Shown here: positions 1-44,645 of the stretch, one piece after another
Layout of the letters: each line of letters starts with the position of its first letter
Position numbering within the stretch: position 1 is the first letter of the stretch
From: the human T2T-CHM13v2.0 reference genome, Homo sapiens
DNA length: 64,000 nt
Reading direction: 5' to 3' (one strand)
Assembly: GCF_009914755.1 (NCBI RefSeq)
Contig: NC_060933.1
Notes under the pieces: generated by a model
Databases searched by the model: none
The model's input: the letters and a program-made list of their open reading frames with translations, nothing else
What the model was told of the DNA's origin: nothing
Position numbers and translations under genes: made by a program

Positions 1-99
1 GAATGGAACGAAAAGGAAGGGAATGGAATGGAATAGAATGGAATGGAATGGAATCAACGCGAGTGCAGGGGAATGGAATGGAATGGAATGCAATGGAAT

Positions 100-114
100 G
101 GAATCTTCCGGAAT
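100..114. promoter_or_regulatory. Perfect canonical heat-shock element nGAAnnTTCnnGAAn (first of ~24 copies of GGAATCTTCCGGAAT)
   Basis: gGAAt-cTTCc-gGAAt matches the three-unit HSF1 trimer consensus exactly. HSF1 binding to SatIII arrays is established, but binding at this site is inferred. Confidence 0.55.
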
Positions 115-15849: not shown

Positions 15850-16229
15850 TAATGGAGAGTTAGGGAGTTGAATAGAATCAATCCGAATGTAATGGAATGG
15901 AAGGGAATGGAATGGAATGGAATGGAATGGAATGGAATGGAATGGAATGCAATGGAATGGAATCAACCCGAGTACAATGGAACGGAATGGAATGGAATGG
16001 AATGGCATGGAATGGAATGGAATGGAATGGAATGGAATGGAATGGAGAGTTAGGGAGTTGAATAGAATCAATCCGAATGTAATGGAATGGAACGGAATGG
16101 AATGGAATGGAATGGAATGGAATGGAATGGAATGGAATGCAATGGAATGGAATCAACCCGAGTACAATGGAACGGAATGGAATGGAATGGAATGGCATGG
16201 AATGGAATGGAATGGAATGGAATGGAATG
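15850..16229 (+). repeat. 190-bp tandem duplication
   Basis: Private variant GGAGAGTTAGGGAG at ~15854 and ~16044. AATGGCATGG at 16001 and 16191. Confidence 0.85.
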
Positions 16230-17437: not shown

Positions 17438-17456
17438 ACGGAATGGGTTTATTCCA
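17438..17456. other. Strand-switch junction 1 (GGAAT> <ATTCC)
   Basis: Sequence ...GGAACGGAAT[GG]GTTTATTCC. The forward repeat ends at 17446 and the reverse complement of GGAATAAACCC begins at 17445, giving 2-bp GG microhomology and no inserted bases. Confidence 0.95.
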
Positions 17457-20400
17457 TTCCATTCCATTCCATTCCGGATGATTCCATTCCATTGCATTCT
17501 ATTCCATTCCATTCCCCTGTACTCGGGTTGATTCCATTCCATTCCACTCCATTCCGTTCCATTCCATTCCATTCCATTGTATTCGGGTTAATTCCATTCC
17601 ATTCCATTCCATTCCATTCCATTCCATTACAATCGAGTTGATTCCATTCCATTCCATTCCATTCCATTCCATTCCAGTCCTTTCCATTCCATTCCACTCG
17701 GGTTGATTCCATTCTATTAGTTTCCATTCCATTCCATTCCCTTCCATTCCACTCTGGTTGATTCCATTCCTTTCCATTCCACTCGAATACATTCCCTCCT
17801 ATTCCACTCGGAACTATTCCATTCCATTCCATTCCATTCCATTCCATTTCGTTCCATTCCATTCTATTCCATATCATTCCATTCCATTCCGTTCCATTCC
17901 ATTCCATTCCATTCCACTCGTGTTGATTCCATTCCTTTCCATTCCATTCGGTTTGAAGGCATTCCATTCCATTCCATTCCATTCCATTCCATTGTACTCG
18001 GGTTGATTCCATTCCATTGCATTCCATTCCATTCCATTCCATTCCATTCCCTTGCATTCCATTCCATTACATTCGGATTGATTCTATTCAAATCCCTTAC
18101 TCTCCATTACATTCCATTCCATACGGGTTGTTCCATTCCATTCCATTCCATTCCACTCCATTCCATTGCACTAGGGTTGATTCCATTCCATTCCATTCCA
18201 TTCCATTCCATTCCGGATGATTCCATTCCATTGCATTCCGTTCCATTACATTCCCCTGCACTCGCGTTCATTCCATTCCATTCCATTCCATTCCATTCCA
18301 TTCCATTCCATACCATTCCGTTCCATTCCATTCCGTTCCGTTCCATTCCATTCCATTCCATTCCATTCCATTCCGTTCCGTTCCGTTCCATTCCATTCCA
18401 TTCCATTCTATTCGGGTTAATTCCATTCCATTCCATTCGATTGCAATCGAGTTGATTCCATTCCATTCCATTCCATTCCATTCCATTCCTTTCCATTCCA
18501 TTACGGATGATTCCATTCCATTGCATTCCATTCCATTCCATTCCCCTGTACTCGGGTTTATTCCATTCCATTCCATTCCAATCCATGCCATTCCACTCGT
18601 GTTGATTCCATCCTTTCCATTCCATTCAAGTTGAATCCATTCCATTGCATTCCATTCAATTTGATTCCATTCGATTGCACTCGGGTTGATTCCATTCCAT
18701 TGCATTCCATTCCATTCAATTCCATTCCATTCCATTCCATTCCATTCCATTCCATTACATTACATTACATTACATTACATTCGGATTGATTCTATTCAAT
18801 TCCCTTACACTGCATTACATTCCATTCCATTCGGGTAGTTTCCATTCCATTCCATTCCATTCCTCTCCATTCCATTGCACTCGGGTTGATTCCATTCCAT
18901 TGCATTCCATTCCATTCCGTTCAATTCCATTCCGTTGCATTCAATTCGATTACATGCGGATTGATTCTATTCAACTCCCTTACTCTCCATTCCATTCCAT
19001 TCCATTCAGGTTGTTCCATTCCATTCCATTCCATTCCACTCCATTCCATTGCAAGCGGGTTGATTCCATTCCATTCCATTCAATTCCATTCCATTCCATT
19101 CCATTCCATTCCATTCCATTCCATTCCATTACAATCGAGTTGATTCCATTCCATTCCATTCCATTCCATTCCTTTCCATTCCATTCCACTCGGGTTGATT
19201 CCATTCTATTAGTTTCCATTCCATTCCAATGCCTTCCATTCCACTCTGGTTGATTCCATTCCTTTCCATTCCACTCGAATACATTCCCTCCTATTCCACT
19301 CGGAACGATTCCATTCCATTCCATTCCATTCCATTCCATTTCGTTCCATTCCATTCTATTCCGTATCATTCCATTCCATTCCATTCCATTCCATTCCATT
19401 CCATTCGATTCCATTCCATTCCATTGTACTCGGGTTGATTCCATTCCATTGCATTCCATTCCATTCCATTCCATTCCATTCCATTCCATTCCATTCCGTT
19501 CCATTCCATTACATTCGGATTGATTCTTTTCAACTCCCTTACTCTCCATTACATTCCATTCCATTCGGATTGTTCCATTCAATTCCATTCCATTCCACTC
19601 CATTCCATTGCACTCGGGTTGATTCCATTCCATTCCATTGCATTCCATTCCGGATGATTCCATTCCATTGCATTCCGTTCCATTACATTCCCCTGCACTC
19701 GGGTTGATTAAATTCCATTCAATTCCATTCCATTCCATTCCATTCCATTCCATTCCCCTGCACTCGCGTTGATTCCATTCCATTCCATTCCATTCCATTC
19801 CATTCCATTCCATTCCATTCCATTCCTTTCCATTCCAGTCCTTTCCATTCCATTCCACTCGGGTTGATTCCATTCTATTAGTTTCCATTCCATTCCATTC
19901 CCTTCCATTCCACTCTGGTTGATTCCATTCCTTTCCATTCCACTCGAATACATTCCCTCCTATTCCACTCGGAACGATTCTATTCCATTCCATTCCATTC
20001 CATTACATTCCATTCCATTCCATTTCGTTCCATTCCATTCTATTCCGTATCATTCCATTCCATTCCATTCCATTCCATTCCATTCCACTCGTTTTGATTT
20101 CATTCCTTTCCATTCCATTCGGTTTGAAGGCATTCCATTCCATTCCATTCCATTCCATTCCATTCCATTCCATTCCATTTCGTTCCATTCCATTCTATTC
20201 CGTATCATTCCATTCCATTCCATTCCATTCCATTCCATTCCATTCCATTCCATTCCATTGTACTCGGGTTGATTCAATTCCATTGCATTCCATTCCATTC
20301 CATTCCATTCCATTCCGTTGCATTCCATTCCATTTCATTCGGATTGATTCTATTCAACTCCCTTACTCTCCATTACATTCCATTCCATTCGGGTTGTTCC

Positions 20401-22639
20401 ATTCCATTCCATTCCATTCCACTCCATTCCATTGCACTCGGATTGATTCCATTCCATTCCATTCCATTCCATTCCATTCCGGATGATTCCATTCCATTGC
20501 ATTCCGTTCCATTACATTCCCCTGCACTCGGGTTGATTCCATTCCATTCCATTCCATTCCATTCGATTCCATTCCATTCCAATTCTTTCCATTCCATTCT
20601 ATACCGTTCCATTCCATTCCATTGCATACAATTCCATTCCATTCCATTCCACTCCGTTCCGTTCCGTTCCGTTCCATTCCGTTCCATTCCATTCCATTCC
20701 ATTCTATTCGGTTTAATTCCATTCCATTCCATTCCATTCCATTCCATTCCATTCTATTCCATTCCATTGCAATCGATTTGAATCCATTGCATTCCATTCC
20801 ATTCCATTCCATTCCATTCCGGAAGATTCCATTCCATTGCATTCCATTCCATTCCATTCCATTCCATTCCATTCCATTCCATTCCATTCCTTTCCATTCC
20901 ATTACAGATGATTCCATTCCATTGCGTTCCATTCCATTCCATTCCCCTGTACTCGGGTTGATTCCATTCCATTCCATTCCAATCCATGCCATTCCACTCG
21001 TGTTGATTCCATTCTTTCCATTCCATTCAAGTTGAATCCATTCCATTGCATTCCATTCCATTCCATTCCCCTGCAGTCGGGTTGTTTCCATTCCATTCCA
21101 TTCCATTCCATTCCGTTCCGTTCGGTTCCGTTCCATTCCATTCCATTCCATTCTATTCGGGTTAATTCCATTTCATTCCATTCCATTCCATTCCATTCCA
21201 TTCCAATCCAGTTGATTCCATTCCATTCCATTCCATTCCATTCCACTCCATTCCAGTCCTTTCCATTCCATTCCACTCGGGTTGATTCCAATGTATTCCT
21301 TTCCATTCCATTCCATTCCATTGCAATCGAGTTGATTCCATTGCTTTGCATTCCATTCCATTCCATTCCATTCCGGATGATTGCATTCCATTGCATTCCA
21401 TTCCATTCCATTCCCCTGCACTCGGGTTGATTCCATTCCATTCCACTCCATTCCGTTCCATTCCATTCCATTGCATTGTATTCGGGTTAATTCCATTCCA
21501 TTCCATTCCATTCCATTCCATTCCATTCCATTCCATTCCATTACAATCGAGTTGATTCCATTCCATTCTAGTCCTTTCCATTCTATTCCTCTCGGGTTGA
21601 TTCCATTCTATTAGTTTCCATTCCATTCCATTCCCTTCCATTCCACTCTGGTTGATTCCATTCCTTTCCATTCCACTCGAATACATTCCCTCCTTTTCCA
21701 CTCGGAACGATTCCATTCCATTCCATTCCATTCCATTCCATTGCATTCCATTACATTTCGTTCCATTCCATTGTATTCCGTATCATTCCATTCCATTCCA
21801 TTCCATTCCATTCCATTCCATTCCATTCCATTCCATTCCATTGTACTCGGGTTGATTCCATTCCATTGCATTCCATTCCATTCCATTCCATTCCATTCCG
21901 TTCCATTCCATTCCATTACATTCGGATTGATTCTTTTCAACTCCCTTACTCTCCATTACATTCCATTCCATTCGGGTTGTTCCATTCCATTCCATTCCAT
22001 TCCACTCCATTCCATTGCACTCGGGTTGATTCCATTCCATTCCATTCCATTCCATTCCGGATGATTCCATTCCATTGCATTCCGTTCCATTACATTCCCC
22101 TGCACTCGGGTTGATTCCATTCCATTCCATTCCATTCCATTCGATTCCATTCCATTCCCCTGCACTCGCGTTGATTCCATTCCATTCCATTCCATTCCAT
22201 TCCATTCCATTCCATTCATTTCCATTCCAGTCTTTTCCATTCCATTCCACTCGGGTTGATTCCATTCTATTAGTTTCCATTCCATTCCATTCCCTTCCAT
22301 TCCACTCTGGTTGATTCCATTCCTTTCCATTCCACTCGAATACATTCCCTCCTATTCCACTCGGAACGATTCCATTCCATTCCATTCCATTCCTTTCCAT
22401 TCCATTCCATTCCATTCCATTCCGTTTCGTTCCATTCCATTCTATTCCGTATCATTCCATTCCATTCCATTCCATTCCATTCCATTCCATTCCATTCCAC
22501 TCGTGTTGATTCCATTCCTTTCCATTCCATTCGGTTTGAAGGCATTCCATTCCATTCCATTCCATTCCATTCCATTCCATTGTACTCGGGTTGATTCCAT
22601 TCCATTGCATTCCATTCCATTCCAATCCGTTGCATTCCA

Positions 22640-25600
22640 TTCCATTACATTCGGATTGATTCTATTCAACTCCCTTACTCTCCATTACATTCCATTCCAT
22701 TCGGGTTGTTCCATTCCATTCCATTCCATACCACTCCATTCCATTGCACTCGGGTTGATTGCATTCCATTCCATTCCATTCCATTCCATTCCATTCCGGA
22801 TGATTCCGTTCCATTGCATTCCGTTCCATTACATTCCCCTGCACTCGCGTTGGTTCCATTCCATTCCATTCCATTCCATTCCATTCCATTCAATTCCATT
22901 CCATTACAATTCGTTGCATTCCATTCTATTCCGTACCATTCCATTCCATTCCATACCATTCCATTCCATTCCATTCCATTCCATTCCATTCCATTCCGTT
23001 CCGTTCCATTCCGTTCCATTCCATTCCATTCCATTCTATTCGGGTTAATTCCATTCCATTCCTTTCCAATCTATTCCATTCCATTGCAATCGAGTTGAAT
23101 CCATTGCATTTCATTCCATTCCATTCCATTCCATTCCATTCCATTGCAATCGAGTTGAATCCATTGCATTTCATTCCATTCCATTCCATTCCATTCCATT
23201 CCGGAAGATTCCATTCCATTGCATTCCATTCCATTCCACTCCCCTGCACTCGCGTTGATTCCATTCCATTCCATTCCATTCCATTCCATTCCGTTCCGTT
23301 CCGTTCCATTTCATTCCATTCCATTCCATTCCATTCCGTTCCGTTCCATTCCATTCCATTCCATTCTATTCGGGTTAATTCCATTCCATTCCATTCGATT
23401 GCAATCGAGTTGATTCCATTCCATTCCATTCCATTCCGTTCCGGATGATTCCATTCTATTGCATTCCATTCCATTCCATTCCCCTGCAGTCGGGTTGATT
23501 CCATTCCATTCCATTCCATTCCATTCCGTTCCATTCCATTCCATTCCATTCTATTCGGGTTAATTCCATTCCATTCCTTTCCATTCCATTCCATTCCATT
23601 CCATTCGAGTTGATTCCATTCCATTCCATTCCATTCCATTCCACTCCATTCCAGTCCTTTCCATTCCATTACACTCGGGTTGATTCCGTTCTATTCCTTT
23701 CCATTCCATTCCATTCCATTGCAATCGAGTTGATTCCATTGCTTTGCATTCCATTCCATTCCATTCCATTCCGGATGATTCCATTCCATTGCATTCCATT
23801 CCATTCCATTCCCCTGCACTCGGGTTGATTCCATTCCATTCCACTCCATTCCGTTCCATTCTAGTCCATTCCATTGTATTCGGGTTAATTCCATTCCATT
23901 CCATTCCATTCCATTCCATTACAATGTAGTTGATTCCATTCAATTCCATTCCATTCCATTCCATTCCAGTCCTTTCCATTCCATTCCACTCGGGTTGATT
24001 CCATTCTATTAGTTTCCATTCCATTCCATTCCCTTCCATTCCAATCTGGTTGATTCCATTCCTTTCCATGCCACTCGAATACATTCCCTCCTATTCCACT
24101 CAGAACGATTCCATTCCATTCCATTCCATTCCATTCCATTCCATTCCATTCCATTCCATTCCAGTTCGTTCCATTCCATTCTATTCCTTACCATTCTATT
24201 CCATTCCATTCCTTTCCATTCCATTCCATTCCACTCGTGGTGATTCCATTCCTTTCCATTCCATTCGGTTTGAAGGCATTCCATTCCATTCCATTCCATT
24301 CCATTCCATTCCATTCCATTCCATTGTACTCGGGTTGATTCCATTCCATTGCATTGCATTCCATTCCATTCCATTCCATTCCATTCCATTCCATTCCGTT
24401 CCATTCCATTCCATTACATTCGGATTGATTCTATTCAATTCCCTTACACTCCATTACATTCCATTCCATTCGGGTAGTTTCCATTCCATTCCATTCCATT
24501 CCTCTCCATTCCATTGCACTCGGGTTGATTCCATTCCATTGCATTCCATTCCATTCCATTCAATTGCATTCCGTTCCATTCCATTCCATTACATTCGGAT
24601 TGATTCTATTCAACTCCCTTACTCTCCATTACATTCGATTCCTTTCGGGTTGTTCCATTCCATTCCATTCCATTCCACTCCATTCCATTGCACTCGGGTT
24701 GATTCCATTCCATTCCATTCCATTCCATTCCATTCCGGAAGATTCCATTCCATTGCATTCCATTCCATTCCATTCCCCTGCACTCGCGTTGATTCCATTC
24801 CATTCCATTCCATTCCATTCCATTCCATTCCATTCCTTTCCGTTCCATTCCATTCCATTCCATTCCATTCCAATCCATTCCATTCCGTTCCGTTCCGTTC
24901 CATTCCATTCCATTCCATTCTATTCGGGTTAATTCCATTCCATTCCATTCGATTGCAATCGAGTTGATTCCATTCCATTCTATTCCATTCCATTCCATTC
25001 CTTTCCATTCCATTACGGATGATTCCATTCCATTGCATTCCATTCCATTCCATTCCCCTGTACTCGGGTTGATTCCATTCCATTCCATTCCAATCCATGC
25101 CATTCCACTCGTGTTGATTCCATTCTTTCCATTCCATTCAAGTTGAATCCATTCCATTGCATTCCATTCCATTCCATTACCCTGCAGTCGGGTTGATTCC
25201 ATTCCATTCCATTCCTTTACATTACATTCCATTGAATTCCGTTCCGTTCCATTCCATTCCATTCCATTCTATTCGGGTTAATTCCATTCCATTCCATTCC
25301 ATTCCATTCCAATCGAGTTGATTCCATTCCATTCCATTCCATTCCATTCCACTCCATTCCAGTCCTTTCCATTCCATTCCACTCGGGTTGATTCCAATGT
25401 ATTCCTTTCCATTCCTTTCCATTCCTTTGCAATCGAGTTGGTTCCATTGCTTTGCATTCCATTCCATTCCATTCCATTCCGGATGATTCCATTCCATTGC
25501 ATTCCATTCCATTCCATTCCCCTGCACTCGGGTTGATTCCATTCCATTCCACTCCATTCCGTTCCATTCCATTCCATTCCATTGTATTCGGGTTAATTCC

Positions 25601-28600
25601 ATTCCATTCCATTCCATTCCATTCCATTCCATTACAATCGAGTTGATTCCATTCCATTCCATTCCATTCCAGTCCTTTCCATTCCATTCCACTCGGGTTG
25701 ATTCCATTCTATTAGTTTCCATTCCATTCCATTCCCTTCCATTCCACTCTGGTTGATACCATTCCTTTCCATTCCACTCGAATACATTCCCTCCTATTCC
25801 ACTCGGAACGATTCCATTCCATTCCATTCCCTTACATTCCATTCCATTCCATTCCATTTCGTTCCATTCCATTCTATTCCGTATCATTCCATTCCATTCC
25901 ATTCCATTCCAATCCACTCGTGTTGATTCCATTCCTTTCCATTCCATTCGGTTTAAAGGCATTCTATTCCATTCCATTCCATTCCATTCCATTCCATTCC
26001 ATTCCATTCCATTGTACTCGGGTTGATTCCATTCCATTGCATTCCATTCCATTCCATTCCATTCCATTCCGTTGCATTCCATTCCATTACATTCGGATTG
26101 ATTGTATTCAACTCCCTTACGCTCCATTCCATTCCATTCCATTCGGGTTGTTCCATTCCATTCCATTCCATTCCACTCCATTCTATTGCACTCGGGTTGA
26201 TTCCATTCCATTCCATTCCATTCCATTCCATTCCATTGCGGATGATTCCATTCCATTGCATTCCGTTCCATTACATTCCCCTGCACTCGCGTTGAATCCA
26301 TTCCATTCCATTCCATTCCATTCAATTCCATTCCATTACAATTCGTTCCATTGCATTCTATTCCGTACCATTCCATTCCATTCCATACCCTTCCATTGCA
26401 TTCCATTCCATTCCATTCCGTTCCATTCCGTTCCATTGCATTCCATTCCATTCTATTCGGGTTAATTCCATTCCATTCCATTCCATTCTATTCCATTCCA
26501 TTTCAATCGAGTTGAATCCATTGCATTTCATTCCATTACATTCCATTCCATTCCATTCCGGAAGATTCCATTCCACTGCGTTCCATTCCATTCCATTACA
26601 TTCGGATTGATTCTATTCAACTCCCTTACTCTCCATTACATTCCATTCCATTCGGGTTGTTCCATTCCATTCCATTCCATACCACTCCATTCCATTGCAC
26701 TCGGGTTGATTGCATTCCATTCCATTCCATTCCATTCCATTCCATTCCATTCCATTCCGGATGATTCCGTTCCATTGCATTCCGTTCCATTACATTCCCC
26801 TGCACTCGCGTTGGTTCCATTCCATTCCATTCCATTCCATTCCATTCAATTCCATTCCATTACAATTCGTTGCATTCCATTCTATTCCGTACCATTCCAT
26901 TCCATTCCATACCATTCCATTCCATTCCATTCCATTCCATTGCATTCCGTTCCGTTCCATTCCGTTCCATTCCATTCCATTCCATTCTATTCGGGTTAAT
27001 TCCATTCCATTCCATTCCAATCTATTCCATTCCATTGCAATCGAGTTGAATCCATTGCATTTCATTCCATTCCATTCCATTCCATTCCATTCCGGAAGAT
27101 TCCATTCCATTGCATTCCATTCCATTCCATTCCCCTGCACTCGCGTTGATTCCATTCCATTCCATTCCATTCCATTCCATTCCATTCCGTTCCGTTCCGT
27201 TCCATTTCATTCCATTCCATTCCATTCCATTCCGTTCCGTTCCATTCCATTCCATTCCATTCTATTCGGGTTAATTCCATTCCATTCCATTCGATTGCAA
27301 TCGAGTTGATTCCATTCCATTCCATTCCATTCCGTTCCGGATGATTCCATTCTATTGCATTCCATTCCATTCCATTCCCCTGCAGTCGGGTTGATTCCAT
27401 TCCATTCCATTCCATTCCATTCCGTTCCATTCCATTCCATTCCATTCTATTCGGGTTAATTCCATTCCATTCCTTTCCATTCCATTCCATTCCATTCCAA
27501 TCGAGTTGATTCCATTCCATTCCATTCCATTCCATTCCACTCCATTCCAGTCCTTTCCATTCCATTACACTCGGGTTGATTCCGTTCTATTCCTTTCCAT
27601 TCCATTCCATTCCATTGCAATCGAGTTGATTCCATTGCTTTGCATTCCATTCCATTCCATTCCATTCCGGATGATTCCATTCCATTGCATTCCATTCCAT
27701 TCCATTCCCCTGCACTCGGGTTGATTCCATTCCATTCCACTCCATTCCGTTCCATTCTAGTCCATTCCATTGTATTCGGGTTAATTCCATTCCATTCCAT
27801 TCCATTCCATTCCATTACAATGTAGTTGATTCCATTCAATTCCATTCCATTCCATTCCATTCCAGTCCTTTCCATTCCATTCCACTCGGGTTGATTCCAT
27901 TCTATTAGTTTCCATTCCATTCCATTCCCTTCCATTCCAAACTGGTTGATTCCATTCCTTTCCATTCCACTCGAATACATTCCCTCCTATTCCACTCAGA
28001 ACGATTCCATTCCATTCCATTCCATTCCATTCCATTCCATTCCATTCCATTCCAGTTCGTTCCATTCCATTCTATTCCTTACCATTCTATTCCATTCCAT
28101 TCCTTTCCATTCCATTCCATTCCACTCGTGGTGATTCCATTCCTTTCCATTCCATTCGGTTTGAAGGCATTCCATTCCATTCCATTCCATTCCATTCCAT
28201 TCCATTCCATTCCAGTGTACTCGGGTTGATTCCATTCCATTGCATTGCATTCCATTCCATTCCATTCCATTCCATTCCATTCCATTCCGTTCCATTCCAT
28301 TCCATTACATTCGGATTGATTCTATTCAATTCCCTTACACTCCATTACATTCCATTCCATTCGGGTAGTTTCCATTCCATTCCATTCCATTCCTCTCCAT
28401 TCCATTGCACTCGGGATGATTCCATTCCATTGCATTCCATTCCATTCCATTCAATTGCATTCCGTTCCATTCCATTCCATTACATTCGGATTGATTCTAT
28501 TCAACTCCCTTACTATCCATTACATTCGATTCCTTTCGGGTTGTTCCATTCCATTCCATTCCATTCCACTCCATTCCATTGCACTCGGGTTGATTCCATT

Positions 28601-32520: not shown

Positions 32521-32600
32521 ATTCCATTCCATTCCCCTGCAGTAGGGTTGATTCCATTCCATTCCATTCCATTCCATTCCGGATGATTCCATTCCACTGC

Positions 32601-35600
32601 CTTCCATTCCACTCCATTCCCCTGCACTCGGGTTGATTCCATTCCATTCCATTCCATTCCATTCGATTCCATTCCATTCCATTTCGTTCCATTCCACTCT
32701 ATTCCGTACCATTCCATTCCATTCCTTTCCATTCCAATCCACGCTATTCCACTCGGGTTGATTCCATTCCTTTCCATTCCATTCGAGTTGAATCCATTCC
32801 ATTCCTTTCCGTTCCATTCCATTCCATTCCTTTCCATTTCGTTCCATTCCATTCTATTCCGTACCATTCCATTCCATTCCATTCCATTCCATTCCATTCC
32901 ATTCCATTCCGTTCCATTCCATTCCATGCCATTCCACTCGGGTTGATTCCATTGCTTTCCATTCCATTTGGGTTGAATCCATTCCATTCCATTCCATTCC
33001 ATTCCATTCCATTCCATTGCACTAGGTTTGATTCCATTCCACTGCATTCCATTCCATTCCATTCCATTCCGTTCCATTCCATTGCATTACATTCGGATTG
33101 ATTGTATTCAATTCCCTTACACTCCATTTCATTCCATTCCATTCGGGTTGTTTCCATACCATTCCATTCCATTCTATTCCATTTCGTTCCATTCCATTCT
33201 ATTCGGTACCATTCCATTCCATTCCATACCATTCCATTCCATGCCATTCCACTTGGGTTGATTCCCTTCCTTTCCATTCCATTCGGGTTGAATCCATTCC
33301 ATTCCATTCCATTCCATTCCATTCCATTCCATTCCATTCCATTCCTTTCCATTCCATTGCACACGGGTTGATTCCATTCCATTCCTTTCTGTTCCATTCC
33401 GGATGACTCCATTCCATTGCATTCCATTCCATTCCATTCCCCTGCCCTCGGGTTCATTACATTCCATTCCATTTACTTCCATTCCATTCCATTCCATTCA
33501 ATTCCATTCTATTCGGGTTAATTCCATTCCATTCCATTCCATTCCATTCCATTCCATTCCATTCCATTGCATTCCATTGCATTCCATTGCAATCGAGTTG
33601 ACTCCATTCCATTCCATTCAATTCCGGATGATTCCATTCCATTGCCTTCAATTCCATTCCATTCCCCTGCACTCGGGTTGATTCCATTCCATTCCATTCC
33701 ATTCCATTCCATTCCATTTCATTCCATTCCATTTCGTTCCATTGCATTCTTTTCCGTTCCATTCCATTCCATTCCATTCCATTACATTCCATTCCATTCC
33801 ATTCCTTTCCATTCTATTCGGGTTAATTCCATTCCATTCCATTCCATTCCATTCCTTTCCATTCCGTTCCATTCAATTCCATTACATTCGGATTGATTCT
33901 TTTTAATTCCCTTACACTCCATTACATTCTATTCCATTCGGGTAGTTTCCATACCATTCCATTCCATTCCACTGCATTCTATTGCACTCGGGTTGATTGA
34001 TTCCATTCCATTGCATTCCATTCCATTCCATTCCATTGGGGATGATTCCATTCCATTGCATTCCATTGCATTCCATTCCCCTGTACTCGGGTTGATCCCA
34101 TTCCATTGCATTCCATTCCATTCCATTGCATTCCATTCCGTTCCATTCCATTCCATTACATTCGTATTGATTCTATTCAATTCCCTTACTCTCCATTACA
34201 TTCCATTCCATTCGTGTTGTTTCCATTCCATTCCATTCCATTCCACTCCATTCCATTGCAATCGGGTTGATTCCATTCCATTCCATTGCATTCCATTCCA
34301 TTCCATTCCATTCCGTATGATTCCATTCCATTGCATTCCATTCCATTCCATTCCCCTGCACTCGGGTGGATTCCATTCTATTCCATTCCATTCCATTCCA
34401 TTCCACTCCATTCCATTCCATTCTATTCGGGTTAATTTCATTCCATTCCATTCCATTCCCTTCCATTGCATTCCATTCCATTCCATTCCATTCCATTGAA
34501 ATCGAGTTGATTCCATTCCATTCCATTCCATTCCATTCCATTCCATTCTATTCGGGTTAATTCCATTCCATTCCATTCCATTCCATTCCCTTCCATTCCA
34601 TTCTATTCCATTCCATTCCATTCCATTCCATTCTAGTAGGGTTAATTCCATTCCATTCCATTCCATTCCATTCCATTCCATTCCATTCCATTCCATTGCA
34701 ATCGAGTTGATTCCATTCCATTCCATTCCATTCCATTCCATTCCATTCAATTCCATTGAACTCGGGTTGATTCCATTCCATTCCATGCCATTCCGTTTCA
34801 TTCCATTCCATTCCATTCCATTCCATTCCATTCCTTTCCGTTCTATTCAATTACATTCGGATTGATTCTATTCAATTCCCTTACACTCCAATACATTCTA
34901 TTCCATTCTTGTTGTTTCCATTCTATTCCATTCCATTCCACTCCATTCCATTGCACTCTGGTTGATTCCATTCCATTCCCTTCCATTCCGTATGACTCCA
35001 TTCCATTTCATTCCATTGCATTGCTTTCCCCTGCACTCGAGTTGATTACATTCCATTCCATTCCCTTCCTTTCCGTTCCATTCCATTCTATTCGGGTTAA
35101 TTCCATTCCATTCCATTACATTCCATTCCCTTCCATTCCATTCCATTCCATTGCAATCGAGTTGATTCCATTCCATTCCATTCCATTCCATTCCGTTGCA
35201 TTCCATTCCATTACATTCGGATTGATTCTTTTTAATTCCCTTACACTCCATTCCATTCCATTCCATTCGGGTACTTTCCATTCCATTCCATTCCATTCCA
35301 CTGCATTCTATTGCACTCGGGTTCATTGATTCCATTCCATTGCATTCCATTCCATTCCATTCCCCTGCACTCGGGTTGATCCCATTTCATTGCATTCCAT
35401 TCCATTCCATTCCATTCCATTCCATTCCATTCCGTTCCATTCTATTCCATTCCATTCTGTTCAGGTTAATTCCATTCCATTCCATTTCCTTTCATTCCGT
35501 TTCATTCCATTCCATTCAATTCTGTTCAGGTTAATTCCATTCCATTCCATTCCCTTCCATTCCATTCCATTCCATTCCATCCCATTGCAATCTAGTTGAT

Positions 35601-38600
35601 TCCATTGCATTCCATTCCATTCCATTCCATTCCATTGCATTCCATTCCATTCCATTCACCTGCACTCAGATTGATTCCATTCCATCCCATTCCATTCCAT
35701 TCCGTTCCATTACATTCCATTCCATTCTATTCGCGTTAATTCCATTCCATTCCATTCCATTACATTCCATTGCAATCGAGTTGATTTCATTCCATTCCGT
35801 TCCATTCCATTCCATTCCATTCCATTTCGTTCCATTCCATTTTATTCTGTACCATTCCATTCAATTCCATTCCATTCCATTCCATTCCATGCCATTCCAC
35901 TCGGGTTGATTCCATTGCTTTCCATTCCATTTGGGTTGAATCCAATCCATTCCATTCCATTCCATTCCATTCCATTCCATTCCATTCCATTGCACTAGGT
36001 TTGATTACATTCCACGGCATTCCATTCCATTCCATTCCGTTCCATTCCATTCCATTACATTCGGATTGATTGTATTCAATTCCCTTACACTCCATTACAT
36101 TCCATTCCATTCGGGTTGTTTCCATTCCATTTCATTCCATTCCACTCCATTCCATTGCACTCAGGTTGATTCCATTCCATTGCATTCCATTCCATTCCAT
36201 TTCGTTCCATTCCATTCTATTCCGTACCATTCCATTCAATTCCATTCCATTCCATGCCATTCCACTCAGGTTTATTACATTCCTTTCCATTCCATTCGGG
36301 TTGAATCCATTCCATTCCATTCCCTTCCATTCCATTCCATTCCATTCCTTTGCACTCGGGTTGATTCCATTCCATTCCCTGCCATTCCATTTCATTCCAT
36401 TCCATTCCATTCCATTCCATTCCATTACATTCCATTCCGTTCCATTCCATTCCATTACATTCGGATTGATTGTATTCAATTCCCTTAAACTCCATTACAT
36501 TCCATTCCATTCGGGTTGTTTCCGTTCCATTACATTCCATTCCACTCCATTCCATTGCACTCAGGTTGATTCCATTCCATTCCATTTCGTTCCATTCCAT
36601 TCTATTCCATACTATTCCATTCCATTCCATTCCATTCCATGCCATTCCACTCGGGTTGATTCCATTCCTTTCCATTCCATTCGGGTTGAATCCATTCCAT
36701 TCCATTCCATTGCATTCCGTTCCATTCCATTCCCTTGCAATCGGGTGGATTCCATTCTATTCCATTCCATTCCATTCATTCCATTCCATTCCATTCCATT
36801 TCGTTCCATTCCATTCTATTCCGTACCTTTCCATTCCATTCCATTCCATTCCATTCCATACCATGCCATTCCACTCGGGTTGATTCCATTCCTTTCCATT
36901 CCATTCTAGTTGAACCCATTCCATTGCATTCCATTCCATTCGATTCCATTCAATTGCACACGGGTTCATTCCTTTCCATTCCATTCCATTCCATTCCGTT
37001 CCATTCCATTCCATTTCGTTCCATTCCATTCTATTCCGTACCATTCCCTTCCATTCCATTCCATTCCACTCCGTTCCATGCCATTCCACTCGGGTTTATT
37101 CCATTCCTTTCCATTCCATTCGGGTTGAATCCATTCCATTCCATTCCATTCCATTCCATTCCATTCCATTCCATTCCATGCCATTCCACTCGGGTTGATT
37201 CCATTCCTTTCCATTCCATTCGAGTTGAACAAATTCCATTCCATTCCATTCCATTCCATTCCATTCCATTGCTCACGGGTTCATTCCATTCCATTCCATT
37301 CCATTCCATTTCGTTCCATTCCATTCTACTCCGTACCGTTCCATTCCATTCCATTCCCTTCCATGCCATTTCACTCGGGATTATTCCTTTCCTTTCCATT
37401 CCATTCGGGTTGAATCCATTCCATTCCATTCCTTTGCATTCCATTCCATTCCATTCCCCTGTAATCGGGTGGATTCCATTCTATTCCATTCCATTGCATT
37501 CCATTCCATTCCATCCCATTCCATTCCATTTCGTTCCATTCCATTCTATTCCGTACCTTTCCATTCCATTCCATTCCATTCCATTCCATGCCATTCCACT
37601 CGGGTTGATTCCATTGCTTTCCATTCCATTTGGGTTGAATCTAATCCATTCCATTCCATTCCATTCCATTCCATTCCATTCCATTGCACTAGGTTTGATT
37701 CCATTTAACTGCATTCCATTCCATTCCATTCCATTAAATTCCATTCCACTCGGGTTGATTCCATTCCTTTCCATTCCATTCGTGTTGAATCCATTCCATT
37801 CCATTCCATTACTTTCGATTCCATTCCATTGCACTCGGGTTGAACCCATTCCATTGGATTCCATTCCATTCCATTGCATTCCATTCCGTTCCATTCCATT
37901 CCATTACATTCGTATTGATTCTATTCAATTCCCTTACACTCCATTCCATTCCATTCCATTCCATTCGGGTTGTTTCCATTCCATTCCATTCCATTCCACT
38001 CCATTCCATTGCAATCGGGTTGATTCCATTCCTTTCCATTCCATTCCATTCGGTATGATTCCATTCCATTGCATTCCATTCCATTCCATTCCCCTGCACT
38101 CGGGTGGATTCCATTCTATTCCATTCCATTCCATTCCACTCTATTCCATTCCATTCCATTCCATTCCATTCCATTCCATTCCATTCCATTCTATTCGGGT
38201 TAATTTCATTCCATTCCATTCCATTCCATTCCATTCCATTCCATTCCATTGAAATCGAGTTGATTCCATTTCATTCCATTCCATTCCATTCCATTCCATT
38301 CCATTCCATTCCATTCCATTCCATTGCATTCTATTCCGGTTAATTCCATTCCATTCCATTCCATTCCATTCCCTTCCATTCCATTCCATTCCATTCTATT
38401 AGGGTTAATTCCATTCCATTCCATTCCATTACATTCCATTGCAATCGAGTTGATTCCATTCCATTCCATTCCATTCCATTCAATTCCGGATGATTGCATT
38501 CCATTGCCTTCCATTCCATTCCATTCACCTGCACTCGGGTTGATTCCATTCCATTCCTTTCCATTCCATTCCATTCCATTCCATTCCATTCCATTCCATT

Positions 38601-41600
38601 TCGTTTCATTCCGTTCTATTCCGTACCATTCCATTCCATTCCATTCCATTTCATTCCATTCCATTCCATGCCATTCCACTCGGGTTGATTCCATTCCTTT
38701 CCATTCCATCCGACTTGAATCCATTCCATTCCATTCCATTCCATTCCATTCCATTCCATTGCACACGGTTTCATTCCATTCCAATCCATTCCTTTCCATT
38801 CCATTCCATTGCACACGGGTTCATTCCATTCCATTCCATTCCATTACATTACATTCCATTTCGTTCCATTCCATTCTATTCCGTACCATTCCATTCCATT
38901 CCATTCCATTCCATTCCACTCCATTCCATGCCATTCCACTCGGGTTTATTCCATTCCTTTCCATTCCATTCGGGTTGAATCCATTCCATTCCATTCCATT
39001 CCATTCCATTCCATTCAATTCCATTACATAGCACTCGGGTTGATTCCATTGCATTCCATTCCATTCCATTGCATTCCATTCCATTCCATTGCATTCCATT
39101 CCATGCCATTCCACTCGGGTTGATTCCATTCCTTTCCATTCCATTCGAGTTGAACCCATTCCATTCCATTCCATTCCATTCAATTCCATTCCATTGCAAT
39201 CGAATTGATTCCATTCCATTCCATTCCATTGCACTAGGTTTGATTCCATTCCACTGCATTCCATTCCATTCCATTCCATTCCATTCCGTTCCATTCCATT
39301 CCATTACATTCGGTTTGATTGTTTTCAATTCCCTTACACTCCATTTCATTCCATTCCATTCAGGTTGTTTCCATTCCATTCCAATCCATTCCACTCCATT
39401 CCATTGCACTCGGGTTGATTGCATTCCATTCCATTCCATTCTACTCCATTTCGTTCCATTCCATTCTATTCGGTAGCATTCCATTCCATTCCATTCCAAT
39501 CCATTCCATTCCATGCCATTCCACTTGGGTTGATTCCCTTCCTTTCCATTCCATTCGGGTTGAATCCATTCCATTCCATTCCATTCCATTCCATTCCATT
39601 CCATTCCTTTCAATTCCATTGCACACGGGTTGGTTCCATTCCATTCCTTTCCGTTCCATTCCGGATGACTCCATTCCATTGCATTCCATTCCATTCCATT
39701 CCCCTGCACTCGGGTTCATTACCTTCCATTCCATTTAGTTCCATTCCATTCCATTCCATTCTATTCGGGTTAATTCCATTCCATTCCATTGCATTCCATT
39801 GCATTGCATTCCATTCCATTCCATTCCATGCCATTCCATTCCATTCCATTGCAATCGAGTTGATTCCATTCCATTCCATTCAATTCCGGATGATTCCATT
39901 CCATTGCCTTCAATTCCATTCCATTCCCCTGCACTCGGTTTGATTCCATTCCATTCCATTCCATTCCATTCCATTCCATTCCATTCCATTTCGTTCCATT
40001 CCATTCTATTCCGAACCATTCCATTCTATTCCATTCCATTCCATTCCACTCCACTCCATGCCATTCCACTCGGGTTTATTCCATTCCTTTCCATTCCATT
40101 CGGGTTGAATCCATTCCATTCCATTCCATTCCATTCGATTCCATTACATTGCACTCGGGTTGATTCCATTGCATTCCATTCCATTACATTCCATTGCATT
40201 CCATTCCATTCCATTCCCCTGCACTCAGGTTGATTCCATTCGATTCCTTTCCATTCCATTCCATTCGGGTTGTTTCCATTCCATTCCATTCCATTCCACT
40301 CCATTCCATTGCAATCGGGTTGATTCCATTCCATTCCATTGCATTCCATTCCATTCCATTCCATTCCGTATGATTCCATTCCATTGCATTCCATTCCATT
40401 CCATTCCCCTGCACTCGGTTGGATTACATTCTATTCCATTCCATTCCATTCCATTCCATTCCATTCCATTCCATTCTATTCAGGTTAATTTCATTCCATT
40501 CCATTCCGTTCCCTTCCATTCCATTCCATTCCATTCCATTCCATTGAAATCGAGTTGATTCCATTCCATTCCATTCCATTCCATTCCATTCTATTCGGGT
40601 TAATTCCATTCCATTCCATTCCATTCCATTCCCTTCTATTCCATTCCATTCGATTCCATTCCATTCTATTAGGGTTAATTCCATTCCATTCCATTCCATT
40701 CCATTCCATTCCATTCCACTCCATTCCATGCCATTCCACTCGGGTTTATTCCATTCCTTTCCATTCCATTTGGGTTGAATCCATTCCATTCCATTCCATT
40801 CCATTCCATTCCATTCCATTCCATGCCATTGCACTCGGGTTGATTCCATTCCTTTCCATTCCATTCGAATTGAACCCATTCCATTCCATTCCATTCCATT
40901 CCATTCCATTCCATTCCATTCCATTGCTCACGGGTTCATTCCATTCCATTCCATTCCATTCCATTCCATTCCATTCCATTTCGTTCCATTCCATTCTACT
41001 CCGTACCATTCCATTCCATTCCATTCCCTTCCATGCCATTTCACTCGGGTTTATTCCATTCCTTTCCATTCCATTCGGGTTGAATCCATTCCATTCCATT
41101 CCATTCCATTCCATTCCATTCCATTCCATTGCGCTCGGGTTGATTCCATTCCATTCTATGCCATTCCATTTCATTCCATTCCATTCCATTCCATTCCAAT
41201 CCATTCCATTCCATTCCTTTCCTTTCAATTCCATTCCATTACATTCGGATTGATTCTTTTTAATTCCCTTACACTCCATTCCATTCCATTCCATTCGGGT
41301 ACTTTCCATTCCATTCCATTCCATTCCACTGCATTCTTTTGCACTCGCGTTGATTGATTCCATTCCATTCCATTCCATTCCATTCCATTCCATTCCATTA
41401 CATTCCATACCATTCCATTCCATTCTGTTCAGGTTAATTCCATTCCATTCCATTCCCTTCCATTCCATTCCATTCCATTCCATCCCATTGCAATCGAGGT
41501 GATTCCATTGCATTCCATTCCTTTCCATTCCATTGCACTCCATTCCATTCCATTCCCCTGCACTCAGATTGATTCCATTCCATTCCTTTCCATTCCATTC

Positions 41601-44600
41601 CTTTCCATTCCTTTCCATTCCATTCTATTTGCGTTAATTCCGTTCCATTCCATTCCATTACATTCCTTTGCAATCGAGTTGATTCCATTCCATTCCGTTC
41701 CATTCCATTCCATTCCATTCCATTCCATGCCATTCCACTCGGGTTGATTCCATTCCTTTCCATTCCATTCGAGTTGAATCCATTCCATTCCATTCCATTC
41801 CATTCGATTCCATTCCATTGCTCACGTGTTCATTCCATTCCATTCCATTCCATTCCATTCCATTCCATTTCGTTCCATTCCATTCTCTTCCATAGTATTC
41901 CATTCCATTCCATTCCAATCCATTCCATGCCATTCCACTCGGGTTTATTCCATTCCTTTCCATTCCATTCGGGTTGAATTCATTCCATTCCATTCCATTC
42001 CATTCCATTCAATTCCATTACATTGCACTCGGGTTGATTCCATTCCATTCCATTCCATTTCAATCCATTCCCTTCCATTCCATTTCATTCCATTCCATTC
42101 CATTCCATTCCATTCCATTCCATTCCTTTCCATTCCATTCCATGCCATTCCACTCGGGTTGATTCCATTCCTTTCCATTCCATTCTAGTTGAACCCATTC
42201 CATTCCATTCCATTCCATTCCATTCCATTCCATTCCATTGCACACGGGTTCATTCCATTCCATTCCATTCCATTCCATTCCATTCCATTCCATTTCGTAC
42301 CATTCCATTCTATTCCTTACCATTCCATTCCATTCCATTCCCTTCCATGCCATTTCACTCGGGTTTATTCCATTCCTTTCCATTCCATTCGGGTTGAATC
42401 CATTCCATTCCATTCCATTCCATTCCATTGAACTCAGGTTGATTCCATTCCATTCCATGCCATTCCATTTCATTCCATTCCATTCCATTCCATTCCATTC
42501 CATTCCATTCCGTTCCCTTCCATTCCATTACATTCGGATTGATTCTTTTTAATTCCCTTACACTCCATTACATTCCTTTCCATTCGGGTAATTTCCATTC
42601 CATTCCATTCCATTCCACTGAATTCTATTGCACTCGGGTTGATTGATGCCATTCCATTGCATTCCATTCCATTCCATTCCCCTGCACTCGGGTTGATCCC
42701 ATTCCATTGCATTCCATTCCATTCCATTCCATTCCATTCCGTTCCATTCCATTCCATTCCATTCTCTTCAGCTTAATTCCATTCCATTCCATTCCCTTCC
42801 ATTCCGTTCCATTCCATTCCATTCCATTCTGTTCAGGTTAATTCCATTCCATTCCATTCCCTTCCATTCCATTCCATTCCATTCCATCCCATTGCAATCT
42901 AGTTGATTCCATTGCATTCCATTCCATTCCATTCCATTCCATTGCATTCCATTCCATTCCATTCTCCTGCACTCAGATTGATTCCATTCCATCCCATTCC
43001 ATTCCATTCCGTTCCATTACATTCCATTCCATTCTATTCGCGTTAATTCCATTCCATTCCATTCCATTACATTCCATTGCAATCGAGTTGATTCCATTCC
43101 ATTCCGTTCCATTCCATTCCATTCCATTCCATTCCATTCCATTTCATTCCATTCCATTCTATTCTGTACCATTCCATTCCATTCCATTCCATTCCATTCA
43201 ATTCCATGCCATTCCACTCGGGTTGATTCCATTGCTTTCCATTCCATTTGGGTTGAATCCAATCCATTCCATTCCATTCCATTCCATTCCATTCCATTTC
43301 ATTCCATTCCATTCCATTCCATTCCATTGCACTAGGTTTGATTCCATTCCACTGCATTCCATTCCATTCCATTCCGTTCCATTCCATTCCATTACATTCG
43401 GATTGATTGTATTCAGTTCCCTTACACTCCATTACATTCCATTACATTCGGGTTGTTTCCATTCCATTACATTCCATTCCACTCCATTCCATTGCACTCA
43501 GGTTGATTCCATTCCATTCCATTCCATTCCATTCCATTACTTTCCATTCCATTCTATTCCGTACCATTCCATTCCATTCCATTCCATTCCATTCCATGCG
43601 ATTCCACTCAGGTTTATTCCATTCCTTTCCATTCCATTCGGGTTGAATCCATTCCATTCCATTCCATTCCATTCCATTCCATTCCATTCCTTTGCACTCG
43701 GGTTGATTCCATTCCATTCCCTGCCATTCCATTTCATTCCATTCCATTCCATTCCATTCCATTCCATTCCATTCCATTCCACTGCATTCTATTGCACTCG
43801 GGTTGATTGATTCCATTCCATTGCATTCCATTCCATTCCATTCCATTCCATTCCATTCTGTTCAGGTTAATTCCATTCCATTCCATTCCCTTCCATTCCA
43901 TTCCATTCCATTCCATCCCATTGCAATCGAGGTGATTCCATTGCATTCCATTCCATTCCATTCCATTGCATTCCATTCCATTGCATTCCCCTGCACTCAG
44001 ATTGATTCCATTCCATTTCTTTCCATTCCATTCCGTTCCATTCCTTTCCATTCCATTCTATTTGCGTTAATTCCGTTCCATTCCATTCCATTACATTCCT
44101 TTGCAATCGAGTTGATTCCATTCCATTCCGTTCCATTCCATTCCATTCCATTCCATGCCATTCCACTCGGGTTGATTCCATTCCTTTCCATTCCATTCGA
44201 GTTGAATCCATTCCATTCCATTCGATTCCATTCAATTGCTCACGTGTTCATTCCATTCCATTCCATTCCATTCCATTTCGTTCCATTCCATTCTCTTCCG
44301 TAATATTCCATTCCATTCCATTCCACTCCATTCCATGCCATTCCACTCGGGTTTATTCCATTCCTTTCCATTCCATTCGGGTTGAATTCATTCCATTGCA
44401 TTCCATTCCATTCCATTCAATTCCATTACATTGCACTCGGGTTGATTCCATTCCATTCCATTCCATTTCAATCCATTCCCTTCCATTCCATTTCATTCCA
44501 TTGCTTTCCATTCCATTCCATTCCATTCCATTCCATTCCATGCCATTCCACTCGGGTTGATTCCATTCCTTTCCATTCCATTCTAGTTGAACCCATTCCA

Positions 44601-44635
44601 TTCCATTCCATTCCATTCCATTCCATTGCACACGG
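32601..44635 (-). repeat. HSat3 block 2b: inverted (ATTCC on +), module type B
   Basis: Different vocabulary, read in GGAAT sense: CAAACCTAGTGC, TTCAACCCAAATGG...AAAGCAATGG, GAACCCGTGTGC/GTGAGC, ATCCACCCG, CATACGG, AATTAAAAAGAATC, GAATACAATCAATCCG, TTAACCTGAACAG. GGAATCTTCCGG and CAACTTG were not seen. Confidence 0.85.
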
Positions 44636-44645
44636 AATGGAATGG
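44625..44645. other. Strand-switch junction 2 (<ATTCC GGAAT>)
   Basis: Sequence ...CATTGCAC[ACGG]AATGGAATGG. The paralog at ~42238 reads TTGCACACGGGTTCATTCC, so the inverted block is truncated at 44635. Microhomology is 2-4 bp (GG to ACGG). Confidence 0.95.

What the first reader, a model, noticed from the sequence alone, without database searches (positions are those of the whole stretch)
17438..44640. Both breakpoints cut the AACCC-G module in the same register, so the inverted 27.2-kb block closes into a seamless circle
The right end of the inverted block (...ATTGCACACGG) joined to its left end (GTTTATTCC...) gives ATTGCACACGGGTTTATTCC. This is a normal-looking module (compare TGCACTCGGGTTTATTCC at 31191 and TTGCACACGGGTTCATTCC at ~42238). 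The flanks also rejoin as clean pentamers, and ACGGAATGG lies at both 17438-17446 and 44632-44640. Possible explanations: inverted re-integration of an extrachromosomal circle, a preferred break or switch point in the CpG-containing decamer, or chance. The 9-mer is common here, so it is weak evidence of a target-site duplication on its own.
Basis: partly seen in the sequence, partly recalled or inferred. Interest (0 to 1): 0.7.

Follow-up and report, generated by a model that had tools for sequence, protein, structure and literature searches.

The report
Old, copied HSat3 strand-switch junction pair
The 27-kb flipped stretch of chromosome 9 satellite DNA is real, but its two ends are old junctions copied many times across the array, and their neat circle-like fit is what this lopsided repeat gives almost by default.

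Summary
The inverted block is real: strand switches lie at 17446/17447 and 44635/44636, each with a 2-bp GG overlap. Its ends do rejoin into a module-like sequence, and the flanks into clean pentamers.

It is not a private 27.2-kb event:
- The left junction 26-mer has 20 exact copies on chr9 and the right junction 28-mer has 80, on both strands.
- Left-to-right spacing is 27-49 kb.
- The right junction also pairs with two other left-junction families (27 copies and 1 copy).
- The window's copy has a secondary ~2.4-kb deletion beside the left junction.
- The left end's parent module has no CpG.
- The block's right ~11 kb and the right flank's first ~9 kb are the same sub-variant in mirror orientation.

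Against four random ends the double closure has P about 0.01-0.03. Given the observed GG overlaps it has P about 0.10-0.23. The C-rich strand is 7.9% G, and 189 of its 557 GG sites sit at exactly GG^GTT.

Verdict: ordinary, ancient, amplified HSat3B5 strand-switch junctions made by short-overlap joins. The circle fit is a by-product of composition. An eccDNA founder is not excluded but nothing specifically supports it.

The parts
1..17446 (+). Left flank (A), HSat3 in (GGAAT)n orientation
   Evidence: GC skew is +0.6. There are no ATTCC runs. The array stays forward for 20 kb further left (L093, L094).
17405..17446 (+). A-end 42-mer: module m1 (AATCAAC^CCGAGTAC...) plus 23 nt, a common repeat element
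   Evidence: 588 exact copies on chr9, of which 20 are junction copies. Of 20 sampled uninterrupted copies, 18 reach a D-like y-unit after 83-103 nt.
17435..17460 (+). Left junction I-a (GGAAT->ATTCC), with GG overlap at 17445-17446
   Evidence: Sequence read. The 26-mer has 20 exact copies on chr9 (10 on each strand), and the reversed-pattern control gives 0. One mutated copy was seen (L063).
17447..44635 (-). Inverted block, 27,189 bp, (ATTCC)n on the + strand
   Evidence: Base composition is G 7.9%, C 33.6%.
17447..17485 (-). Block-side 39-mer: the right half of a degenerate module followed by pentamers and CCGGATGATTCC
   Evidence: 82 exact copies on chr9, 19 of them at I-a junctions. Of 20 others sampled: 16 follow CATTGCAATGGA, 2 follow CACTCGG, 1 follows CACTAGG, and 1 is a mutated junction.
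17474..18050 (-). Recombinant stretch marking a secondary ~2.4-kb deletion; the first diagnostic difference from the other junction copies is at 17500
   Evidence: 8 of 8 other I-a copies continue in a different context. The window is 300/300 identical, then has 2 mismatches up to position 577, to a paralogue 2,392 bp inside the block of the copy at chr9:60023578.
33359..44635 (-). Y-type sub-domain of the block (CCGTGTGC modules, D-like y-units)
   Evidence: GCACACGG modules lie only at 33359-44628 within the block. There is a dense block of shared rare 26-mers with the right flank and matching marker tracks.
44618..44645 (+). Right junction II-a (ATTCC->GGAAT), with GG overlap at 44634-44635
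   Evidence: Sequence read. The 28-mer has 80 exact copies on chr9 (47 on +, 33 on -), and the control gives 0.
44636..64000 (+). Right flank (D), forward orientation; the first ~9 kb is Y-type
44649..44720 (+). D 72-mer (y-unit variant)
   Evidence: 148 exact copies. 86 of the 97 copies analysed (of 100 rows listed) lie within 12 kb of a II-a copy: 25 at the junction, 36 on the D side and 25 on the inverted side. All 23 non-junction hits in the 20 sampled loci are preceded by a Y-type module context, never by A.

Best explanation
The block is one copy of an old strand-switch structure in the chr9 HSat3B5 array. It is not a recent or local insertion of a 27.2-kb circle.

Shown:
- Two founder junctions, I-a on the left and II-a on the right, were each made by a join with a 2-bp GG overlap between G-rich (GGAAT)n DNA and C-rich (ATTCC)n DNA.
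- Both junctions were later copied many times by segmental and multi-megabase duplication of the array.
- The blocks they bound were reshaped by unequal recombination. In this window that includes a ~2.4-kb deletion beside the left junction.

Why both block ends fall at the same module register (shown as composition, inferred as cause):
- The C-rich strand has almost no G outside the module core CGGG^TT.
- A join that needs a GG overlap with ...AATGG therefore can hardly land anywhere else.
- The flanks rejoin in pentamer phase for the same reason.
- So the seamless circle is a by-product of composition.

How the founder arose (inferred):
- The most likely mechanism is replication template switching or fold-back, giving an inverted duplication centred on II-a, because a rare sub-variant flanks II-a on both sides in mirror orientation.
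- I-a was either a second switch of the same event or a separate, later join.
For: Multi-copy junctions:
- I-a has 20 exact copies, II-a has 80 and I-b has 27.
- 134 switches were mapped, and spacing patterns repeat at offsets of about 8.74 and 10.63 Mb.

The block is not a fixed unit:
- I-a to II-a spacing is 27.2, 36.2 (x4), 40.4, 45.3 (x2) and 49.5 kb.
- II-a is also bounded by I-b and I-c.

Secondary deletion in the window copy. The window's flank is 0.98-0.99 identical to the copies that have 36-kb blocks.

Composition funnel:
- The block's + strand is 7.9% G.
- Of its 557 GG sites, 189 are at GG^GTT, 189 at GGG^TT and 51 at GG^TT.
- Given GG at all four ends, the closure probabilities are 0.36/0.27 (block) and 0.64/0.38 (flanks).

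Mirror sub-domain around II-a:
- Shared rare 26-mers are confined to block 0-12 kb versus flank 0-10 kb from II-a.
- The 72-mer clusters on both sides of II-a copies: 22 of 52 copies have one on each side, against 0.075 expected per random 12-kb window.

Literature:
- Passages of bioRxiv 10.1101/2021.07.12.452052 state that the chr9 HSat3B5 array and beta satellite arrays contain over 200 inversion breakpoints.
- Passages of bioRxiv 10.64898/2026.07.22.740206 report hundreds of strand switches in CEN09 HSat3, with counts correlated with array length (r = 0.90) and read there as by-products of array expansion.
Against: - Without conditioning on GG, the double closure is fairly unlikely: P about 0.026 at 20 nt and 0.0085 at 30 nt. 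The observed C end with a random B start gives 0.009-0.014. The GG overlap could be a result of the register rather than its cause.
- A and D are neighbouring repeat elements. 18 of 20 A-end copies reach a D-like unit within 83-103 nt. This fits an insertion between A and D with about 85 nt lost.
- The arms next to II-a are not mirror copies at base level. The best collinear piece is 92.8% identical over 1.5 kb at a 1.8-kb offset, and the rest is background at about 84%.
- The Y module is common, with 1,728 copies, so the symmetry at this one locus is weak evidence on its own.
- The I-a arms show no mirror similarity above background.
- The junction census is partial and was gathered in a biased way.
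Confidence: 0.62

Rival explanations
1. An ancient extrachromosomal circle of HSat3 was linearised in a module and re-integrated in inverted orientation between A and D. The whole structure was then amplified.
For: - Both closures hold at 20-30 nt.
- A and D are adjacent repeat elements.
- A simple inversion does not reconstruct cleanly.
Against: - The closure is expected at P = 0.10-0.23 given GG overlaps.
- The joined module is a hybrid of two variant types that never occur together in the window. In a circle that hybrid seam would mark where the circle closed, so the circle would have had to reopen exactly there.
- C's natural successor and B's natural predecessor do not match beyond about 9 nt.
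- About 85 nt, including a module, is missing from the A+D join.
- No empty site was found: 0 of 20 and 0 of 20.
- II-a outnumbers I-a four to one and pairs with other junction families.
- The block's right part is the same rare sub-variant as the flank.
Confidence: 0.07
2. A linear segment, broken at the same register in two different modules because that site is break-prone, was pasted in inverted orientation into a break between A and D. In this reading breakage is site-specific rather than forced by composition.
For: - Both block ends lie at AAC^ in true module contexts.
- Among the roughly ten junction families seen, 7 of 20 sides lie within -3 to +7 of an AAC^ anchor, against 10% expected. 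The nominal P is 0.003, but the window was chosen after seeing the data.
Against: - At the exact register (0 to +2), 2 of 20 sides gives P = 0.11.
- The left parent module has no CpG.
- Families I-b and I-x3 sit on TGCA palindromes, which points to overlap availability rather than fragility.
- The census was gathered in a biased way.
Confidence: 0.12
3. This is a plain two-break inversion of a segment A|B...C|D, sealed by end joining with small losses at both ends. The closure is then chance.
For: - The two junctions are of opposite class and have 2-bp overlaps.
- Y-type domains recur in the array (1,728 module copies), so a Y-W-Y arrangement before the inversion is plausible.
Against: - A+B and C+D are far out of register: 7 and 6 mismatches of 20, 11 and 10 of 30.
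- A is not B's usual predecessor and C is not D's usual predecessor in paralogues.
- The copy numbers are unequal, 20 against 80.
Confidence: 0.17

Closest known systems
Strand switches (inversion breakpoints) of the chr9 HSat3B5 array in T2T-CHM13 and population assemblies
   Same: It is the same array and the same kind of feature. Passages of bioRxiv 10.1101/2021.07.12.452052 state that the chr9 HSat3B5 array and beta satellite arrays contain over 200 inversion breakpoints. Passages of bioRxiv 10.64898/2026.07.22.740206 report hundreds of switches whose number tracks array length.
   Different: The passages I read give counts and distribution, not junction sequences. Here the switches fall into a few sequence families (80, 27 and 20 copies, plus singletons). 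My searches found no paper describing these families. I read search listings and passages only; supplements of the preprints were not opened.
Microhomology-mediated template switching and fold-back inverted duplication (MMBIR/FoSTeS, DUP-TRP/INV-DUP); named from recall, no paper read here
   Same: Both junctions have 2-bp overlaps and no inserted bases. II-a is flanked by the same sub-variant in mirror orientation. Family I-b sits on a TGCA palindrome at the centre of 21.4-kb and 17.8-kb mirrored arms.
   Different: The arms next to II-a are not base-level mirror copies now. The I-a arms are unrelated. No template for the block's left 15 kb was found within 49 kb to the right of II-a.
eccDNA from tandem repeats and its re-integration; general reviews appeared in the search listing and were not read
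   Same: A circle cut from a tandem array closes seamlessly, and integrating it gives flanks that rejoin. Both are seen here over 20-30 nt.
   Different: The block has no constant unit length, no empty site was found, the seam is a hybrid module, about 85 nt of the target is missing, and the closure is explained by composition.

Membership tests
HSat3B5 strand-switch junction | An abrupt change from (GGAAT)n to (ATTCC)n, or the reverse, inside the chr9 HSat3 array | tested here: met
   The window is chr9:75516001-75580000.
eccDNA re-integration | The insert ends join into contiguous source sequence over a long range | tested here: not met
   The join is module-like only over about 20-30 nt. 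Paralogues of the C end continue differently from B, and B's predecessors differ from C beyond about 9 nt. The joined variant combination is absent from the window.
eccDNA re-integration | An empty target site exists (A directly followed by D) | tested here: not met
   0 of 20 sampled uninterrupted A-end copies (of about 568) continue as D. 0 of 20 sampled non-junction D copies are preceded by A. Other haplotypes could not be tested.
eccDNA re-integration | The insert is a discrete unit, unrelated to its flanks, of one length in all copies | tested here: not met
   Spacing is 27.2-49.5 kb. The Y sub-variant lies on both sides of II-a.
eccDNA re-integration | The circle is detected in circular-DNA reads | not testable with these tools
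   No read data are available.
Microhomology-mediated join (alt-EJ / MMBIR) | A short overlap shared by both partners at each junction, with no long homology | tested here: met
   The overlap is GG at 17445-17446 and at 44634-44635.
Fold-back / inverted duplication | The sequences on the two sides of the junction are mirror copies | tested here: inconclusive
   For II-a, symmetry at domain level is strong but there is no base-level mirror. For I-a, no mirror similarity: scores 526-691 against background 587-901.
Simple two-break inversion | Un-inverting the block restores contiguous array at both ends | tested here: not met
   A+B has 7 of 20 and C+D 6 of 20 mismatches to the nearest array word. 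Small losses at the breaks cannot be excluded.
Transposon-like insertion with target-site duplication | A direct repeat immediately outside both ends | tested here: not met
   The second ACGGAATGG straddles the right junction, with 4 nt inside the block. The 9-mer occurs 183 times in the window.

The most novel reading that the evidence does not exclude
One founder event long ago took an HSat3 segment bounded by cuts at the same module register, as a circle or as a linear piece, and placed it in inverted orientation between two neighbouring repeat elements with about 85 nt lost. That structure then seeded a large share of the strand switches on chr9. If so, satellite circles or site-preferred breaks would be a source of inversions in human heterochromatin.
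Probability: 0.1. Interest if true: 0.55.

Novelty: already known. Interest (0 to 1): 0.25.

Why it matters
The finding itself is an ordinary example of the known strand switches in chr9 HSat3. Two by-products may interest satellite specialists.

- At least 134 switches on CHM13 chr9 fall into about nine sequence families. Three of these have 80, 27 and 20 copies. Most switches are therefore copies of a few founder joins, not independent inversions. This fits the reported link between switch number and array length.
- In a satellite with strongly unequal strands, short-overlap inverted joins are steered to the few places where the C-rich strand carries G (the module core) or a TGCA palindrome. 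This imitates site-specific cutting and circle-like closure, and is a caution for anyone reading mechanism from junction register in such repeats.

Tried and rejected
I replaced it with exact-match and k-mer chaining.
- Blastn of 600-bp reconstructed joins could not discriminate, because the pentamer background aligns everything at 85-90%.
- A recent inverted duplicate of the flanks was rejected. The longest block-to-flank exact match is 184 nt, and only two dense chains link the block to the right flank.
- A generic census pattern for head-to-head junctions found only 7 places, because it needs clean pentamers on both sides. It missed junction I-a itself.
- My first inference, that the left end is not in a module at all, came from 9 in-window paralogues and 3 exact genomic paralogues that continue with GCTTTGC. 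I withdrew it when the other junction copies showed that the window's left end is a recombinant.
- A 9-mer target-site duplication was rejected.
- A fold-back origin for I-a was rejected because the arms do not mirror each other.
- A strict mirror image around II-a was rejected. Only domain-level symmetry holds.
Full report
**Observation.** The window (CHM13 chr9:75516001-75580000) is HSat3. GC skew is about +0.6 up to 17 kb, about -0.6 from 18 to 44 kb, and about +0.6 afterwards. There are exactly two strand switches.
- The left junction reads ...CAACCCGAGTACAATGGAACGGAATGG|GTTTATTCCATTCC... at 17446/17447.
- The right junction reads ...CCATTCCATTGCACACGG|AATGGAATGGAATGGAAACAACCCG... at 44635/44636.
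- Each has a 2-bp GG that could belong to either partner.
- The block is 27,189 bp.
- I name the four ends A (left flank end), C' (block start), B' (block end) and D (right flank start). B and C are the block ends read in forward orientation.

**How good is the closure?** I measured each hypothetical join by its smallest Hamming distance to any 20-mer or 30-mer of the orientation-normalised array.

| Join | Mismatches (20-mer / 30-mer) | P for random ends (20 / 30 nt) |
|---|---|---|
| C+B (block closes) | 1 / 1 | 0.22 / 0.135 |
| A+D (flanks rejoin) | 0 / 0 | 0.12 / 0.063 |
| A+B (simple inversion) | 7 / 11 | not seamless |
| C+D (simple inversion) | 6 / 10 | not seamless |

- The joint probability for both closures is about 0.026 at 20 nt and 0.0085 at 30 nt.
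- With one end fixed, the block join has P between 0.009 and 0.09.
- The exact joined module does not occur in the window. 0 of 10 intact CACACGG modules are followed by GTTT, and 0 of the 24 intact GGGTTTATTCC modules follow CACA.

**The junctions are not private to this block.**
- The left junction 26-mer has 20 exact copies on chr9, 10 on each strand, between 55.9 and 75.5 Mb.
- The right junction 28-mer has 80 copies, 47 on + and 33 on -, between 52.3 and 76.4 Mb. Reversed-pattern controls give 0 for both.
- Where a left copy is followed by a right copy in the same orientation, the spacing is 27.2 kb (here), 36.2 kb (four times), 40.4, 45.3 (twice) or 49.5 kb.
- Forward segments running from D to A, 8-22 kb long, also occur between a right and a left copy.
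- Walking between neighbouring right-junction copies uncovered two further left-type families. I-b (GAGTGCA|TTCCATTGCATTCTGG) has 27 copies. I-c has 1 copy.
- Adding four small families gives 134 mapped switches. 36 adjacent pairs are of the same class, so at least 36 junctions remain unseen.
- Identical spacing series recur at offsets of about 8.74 and 10.63 Mb, so multi-megabase duplications account for roughly half the copies.

**The window's copy is a derived one.**
- In 8 of 8 other left-junction copies, the block continues after GTTTATTCC...CCGGATGATTCCATTCCATTGCATTC with a different context.
- From 17500 onward the window instead matches a paralogue lying 2,392 bp inside the block of the copy at chr9:60023578. 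The match is 300 of 300, then 2 mismatches up to 577 nt.
- The window's flank side is 0.98-0.99 identical to the two sampled copies that have 36-kb blocks.
- So 27.2 kb is not an ancestral unit length.

**What the four ends were cut from.**
- B starts inside a true module. In-block paralogues read GGAATGAAC|CCGTGTGCAATGG.
- The block-side 39-mer of the left junction has 82 copies. Of 20 sampled non-junction copies, 16 are uninterrupted array reading ...CATTGCAATGGA|GTTTATTCC, 2 read CACTCGG|GTTT, 1 reads CACTAGG|GTTT, and 1 is a mutated junction.
- The first of these forms shares its downstream context with the junction copies. The left end is therefore the right half of a module, but its parent is a degenerate form without a CpG.
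- A ends 23 nt after AAC^ of a very common element with 588 copies. 18 of 20 sampled uninterrupted copies reach a D-like unit after 83-103 nt, against 13 nt in the A+D join.
- About 85 nt, including a whole module, is therefore missing from A+D. D also carries variants that none of those 18 successors have.
- All 23 non-junction hits to D's 72-mer in the 20 sampled loci are preceded by a different, Y-type context.
- No paralogous empty site was found. The flanks are neighbours in repeat phase but are not demonstrably a broken contiguous site.

**Why the register matches.**
- The block's + strand is only 7.9% G. It has 557 GG sites, of which 189 sit at exactly GG^GTT, 189 at GGG^TT and 51 at GG^TT.
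- A join that shares GG with ...AATGG is therefore steered into the module's G-run.
- Restricting random ends to GG sites, as observed at both junctions, gives closure as good as observed with P = 0.36/0.27 for the block and 0.64/0.38 for the flanks. The joint value is 0.23/0.10.
- Other families point the same way. I-b and the junction at chr9:75367552 sit on TGCA palindromes.
- A rough tally puts 7 of 20 junction sides within -3 to +7 of an AAC^ anchor, against 10% expected. The nominal P is 0.003, but I chose that window after seeing the data and the sample is biased.
- At the exact register the tally is 2 of 20, P = 0.11.

**Relation of block to flank.**
- Rare 26-mers shared between the block and the right flank are confined to the block's first 12 kb and the flank's first 10 kb, measured from II-a. 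Nothing comparable appears in 49 kb of flank.
- CCGTGTGC modules and D-type units occur only there within 114 kb.
- Genome-wide, 86 of the 97 analysed copies of the D 72-mer (of 100 rows listed) lie within 12 kb of a II-a copy: 25 at the junction, 36 on the D side and 25 on the inverted side.
- 22 of 52 II-a copies have one on each side, against 0.075 expected per random 12-kb window.
- II-a therefore sits inside an orientation-symmetric sub-domain. This favours an inverted duplication, or a break within that domain, over the edge of a foreign insert.
- Caveats: the arms are not base-level mirrors, the Y module itself is common with 1,728 copies, and the I-a arms are unrelated.

**Mechanism.**
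- Shown: there are two short-overlap inverted joins. They are old and have been amplified. The bounded block has been remodelled.
- Inferred: the founder of II-a was a template switch or fold-back that duplicated a Y-type segment in inverted orientation. I-a was either a second switch or a later join at a module that offers a GG or AATGG overlap.
- My rough split is: inverted duplication or template switch about 0.4; plain inversion with small losses about 0.2; inverted insertion of a linear piece about 0.1; circle about 0.07; the remainder unresolved.

**Literature.**
- Passages of bioRxiv 10.1101/2021.07.12.452052 state that the chr9 HSat3B5 array and beta satellite arrays contain over 200 inversion breakpoints.
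- Passages of bioRxiv 10.64898/2026.07.22.740206 report hundreds of strand switches in CEN09 HSat3. Their number correlates with array length (r = 0.90), and the authors interpret them as by-products of array expansion.
- Searches found no paper in the held library that gives junction-level families or overlaps for HSat3.
- I read passages and search listings only. Supplementary tables of these preprints (for example strand tables) were not opened and may list this block.

**Verdict.** This is a real but ordinary feature of a known kind. The circle reading is not supported. The register coincidence is explained by strand composition together with short-overlap joining.

Noticed in passing
window about 23100-30400 (inside the block): There is a tandem duplication with a period of about 3.83-3.90 kb, with exact matches up to 440 nt. 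It is the most recent-looking duplication in the window.
   Followed up: partly
window 1956-5646 and 55212-58877: A direct duplication of about 3.7 kb links the left and right flanks, as dense in shared 28-mers as the tandem duplication inside the block.
   Followed up: no
chr9:52915249-52975691 (loci L046-L049, L039-L041): Junction family I-b (27 copies) overlaps on a TGCA palindrome. It lies at the centre of mirrored arms of 21.4 and 17.8 kb that both start at right-junction copies. A 21.2-kb unit made of 17.8 kb reverse plus 3.4 kb forward sequence is tandemly repeated.
   Followed up: partly
chr9:75367552, about 148 kb left of the window: A strand switch here has a perfectly palindromic centre, GGAATGCATTCC. 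It was found once.
   Followed up: no
loci L051, L052, L054-L058 and others: The degenerate module ...CCATTGCAATGGAGTTTATTCC... contains the perfect 12-nt palindrome CCATTGCAATGG, in effect a single inverted pentamer inside the array. It looks like a miniature of the right-junction/left-junction pair.
   Followed up: no
chr9 52.3-54.5 Mb versus 61.0-63.3 Mb, and 54.9-60.7 Mb versus 65.5-71.3 Mb: The series of junction spacings repeats almost to the base at offsets of about 8.74 and 10.63 Mb. This indicates multi-megabase duplications within the HSat3 array.
   Followed up: partly
chr7:58746830 and chr7:59010650: Two head-to-head pentamer junctions on chr7 have the same sequence in opposite orientation, about 264 kb apart. 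They may be the two ends of one inverted segment.
   Followed up: no
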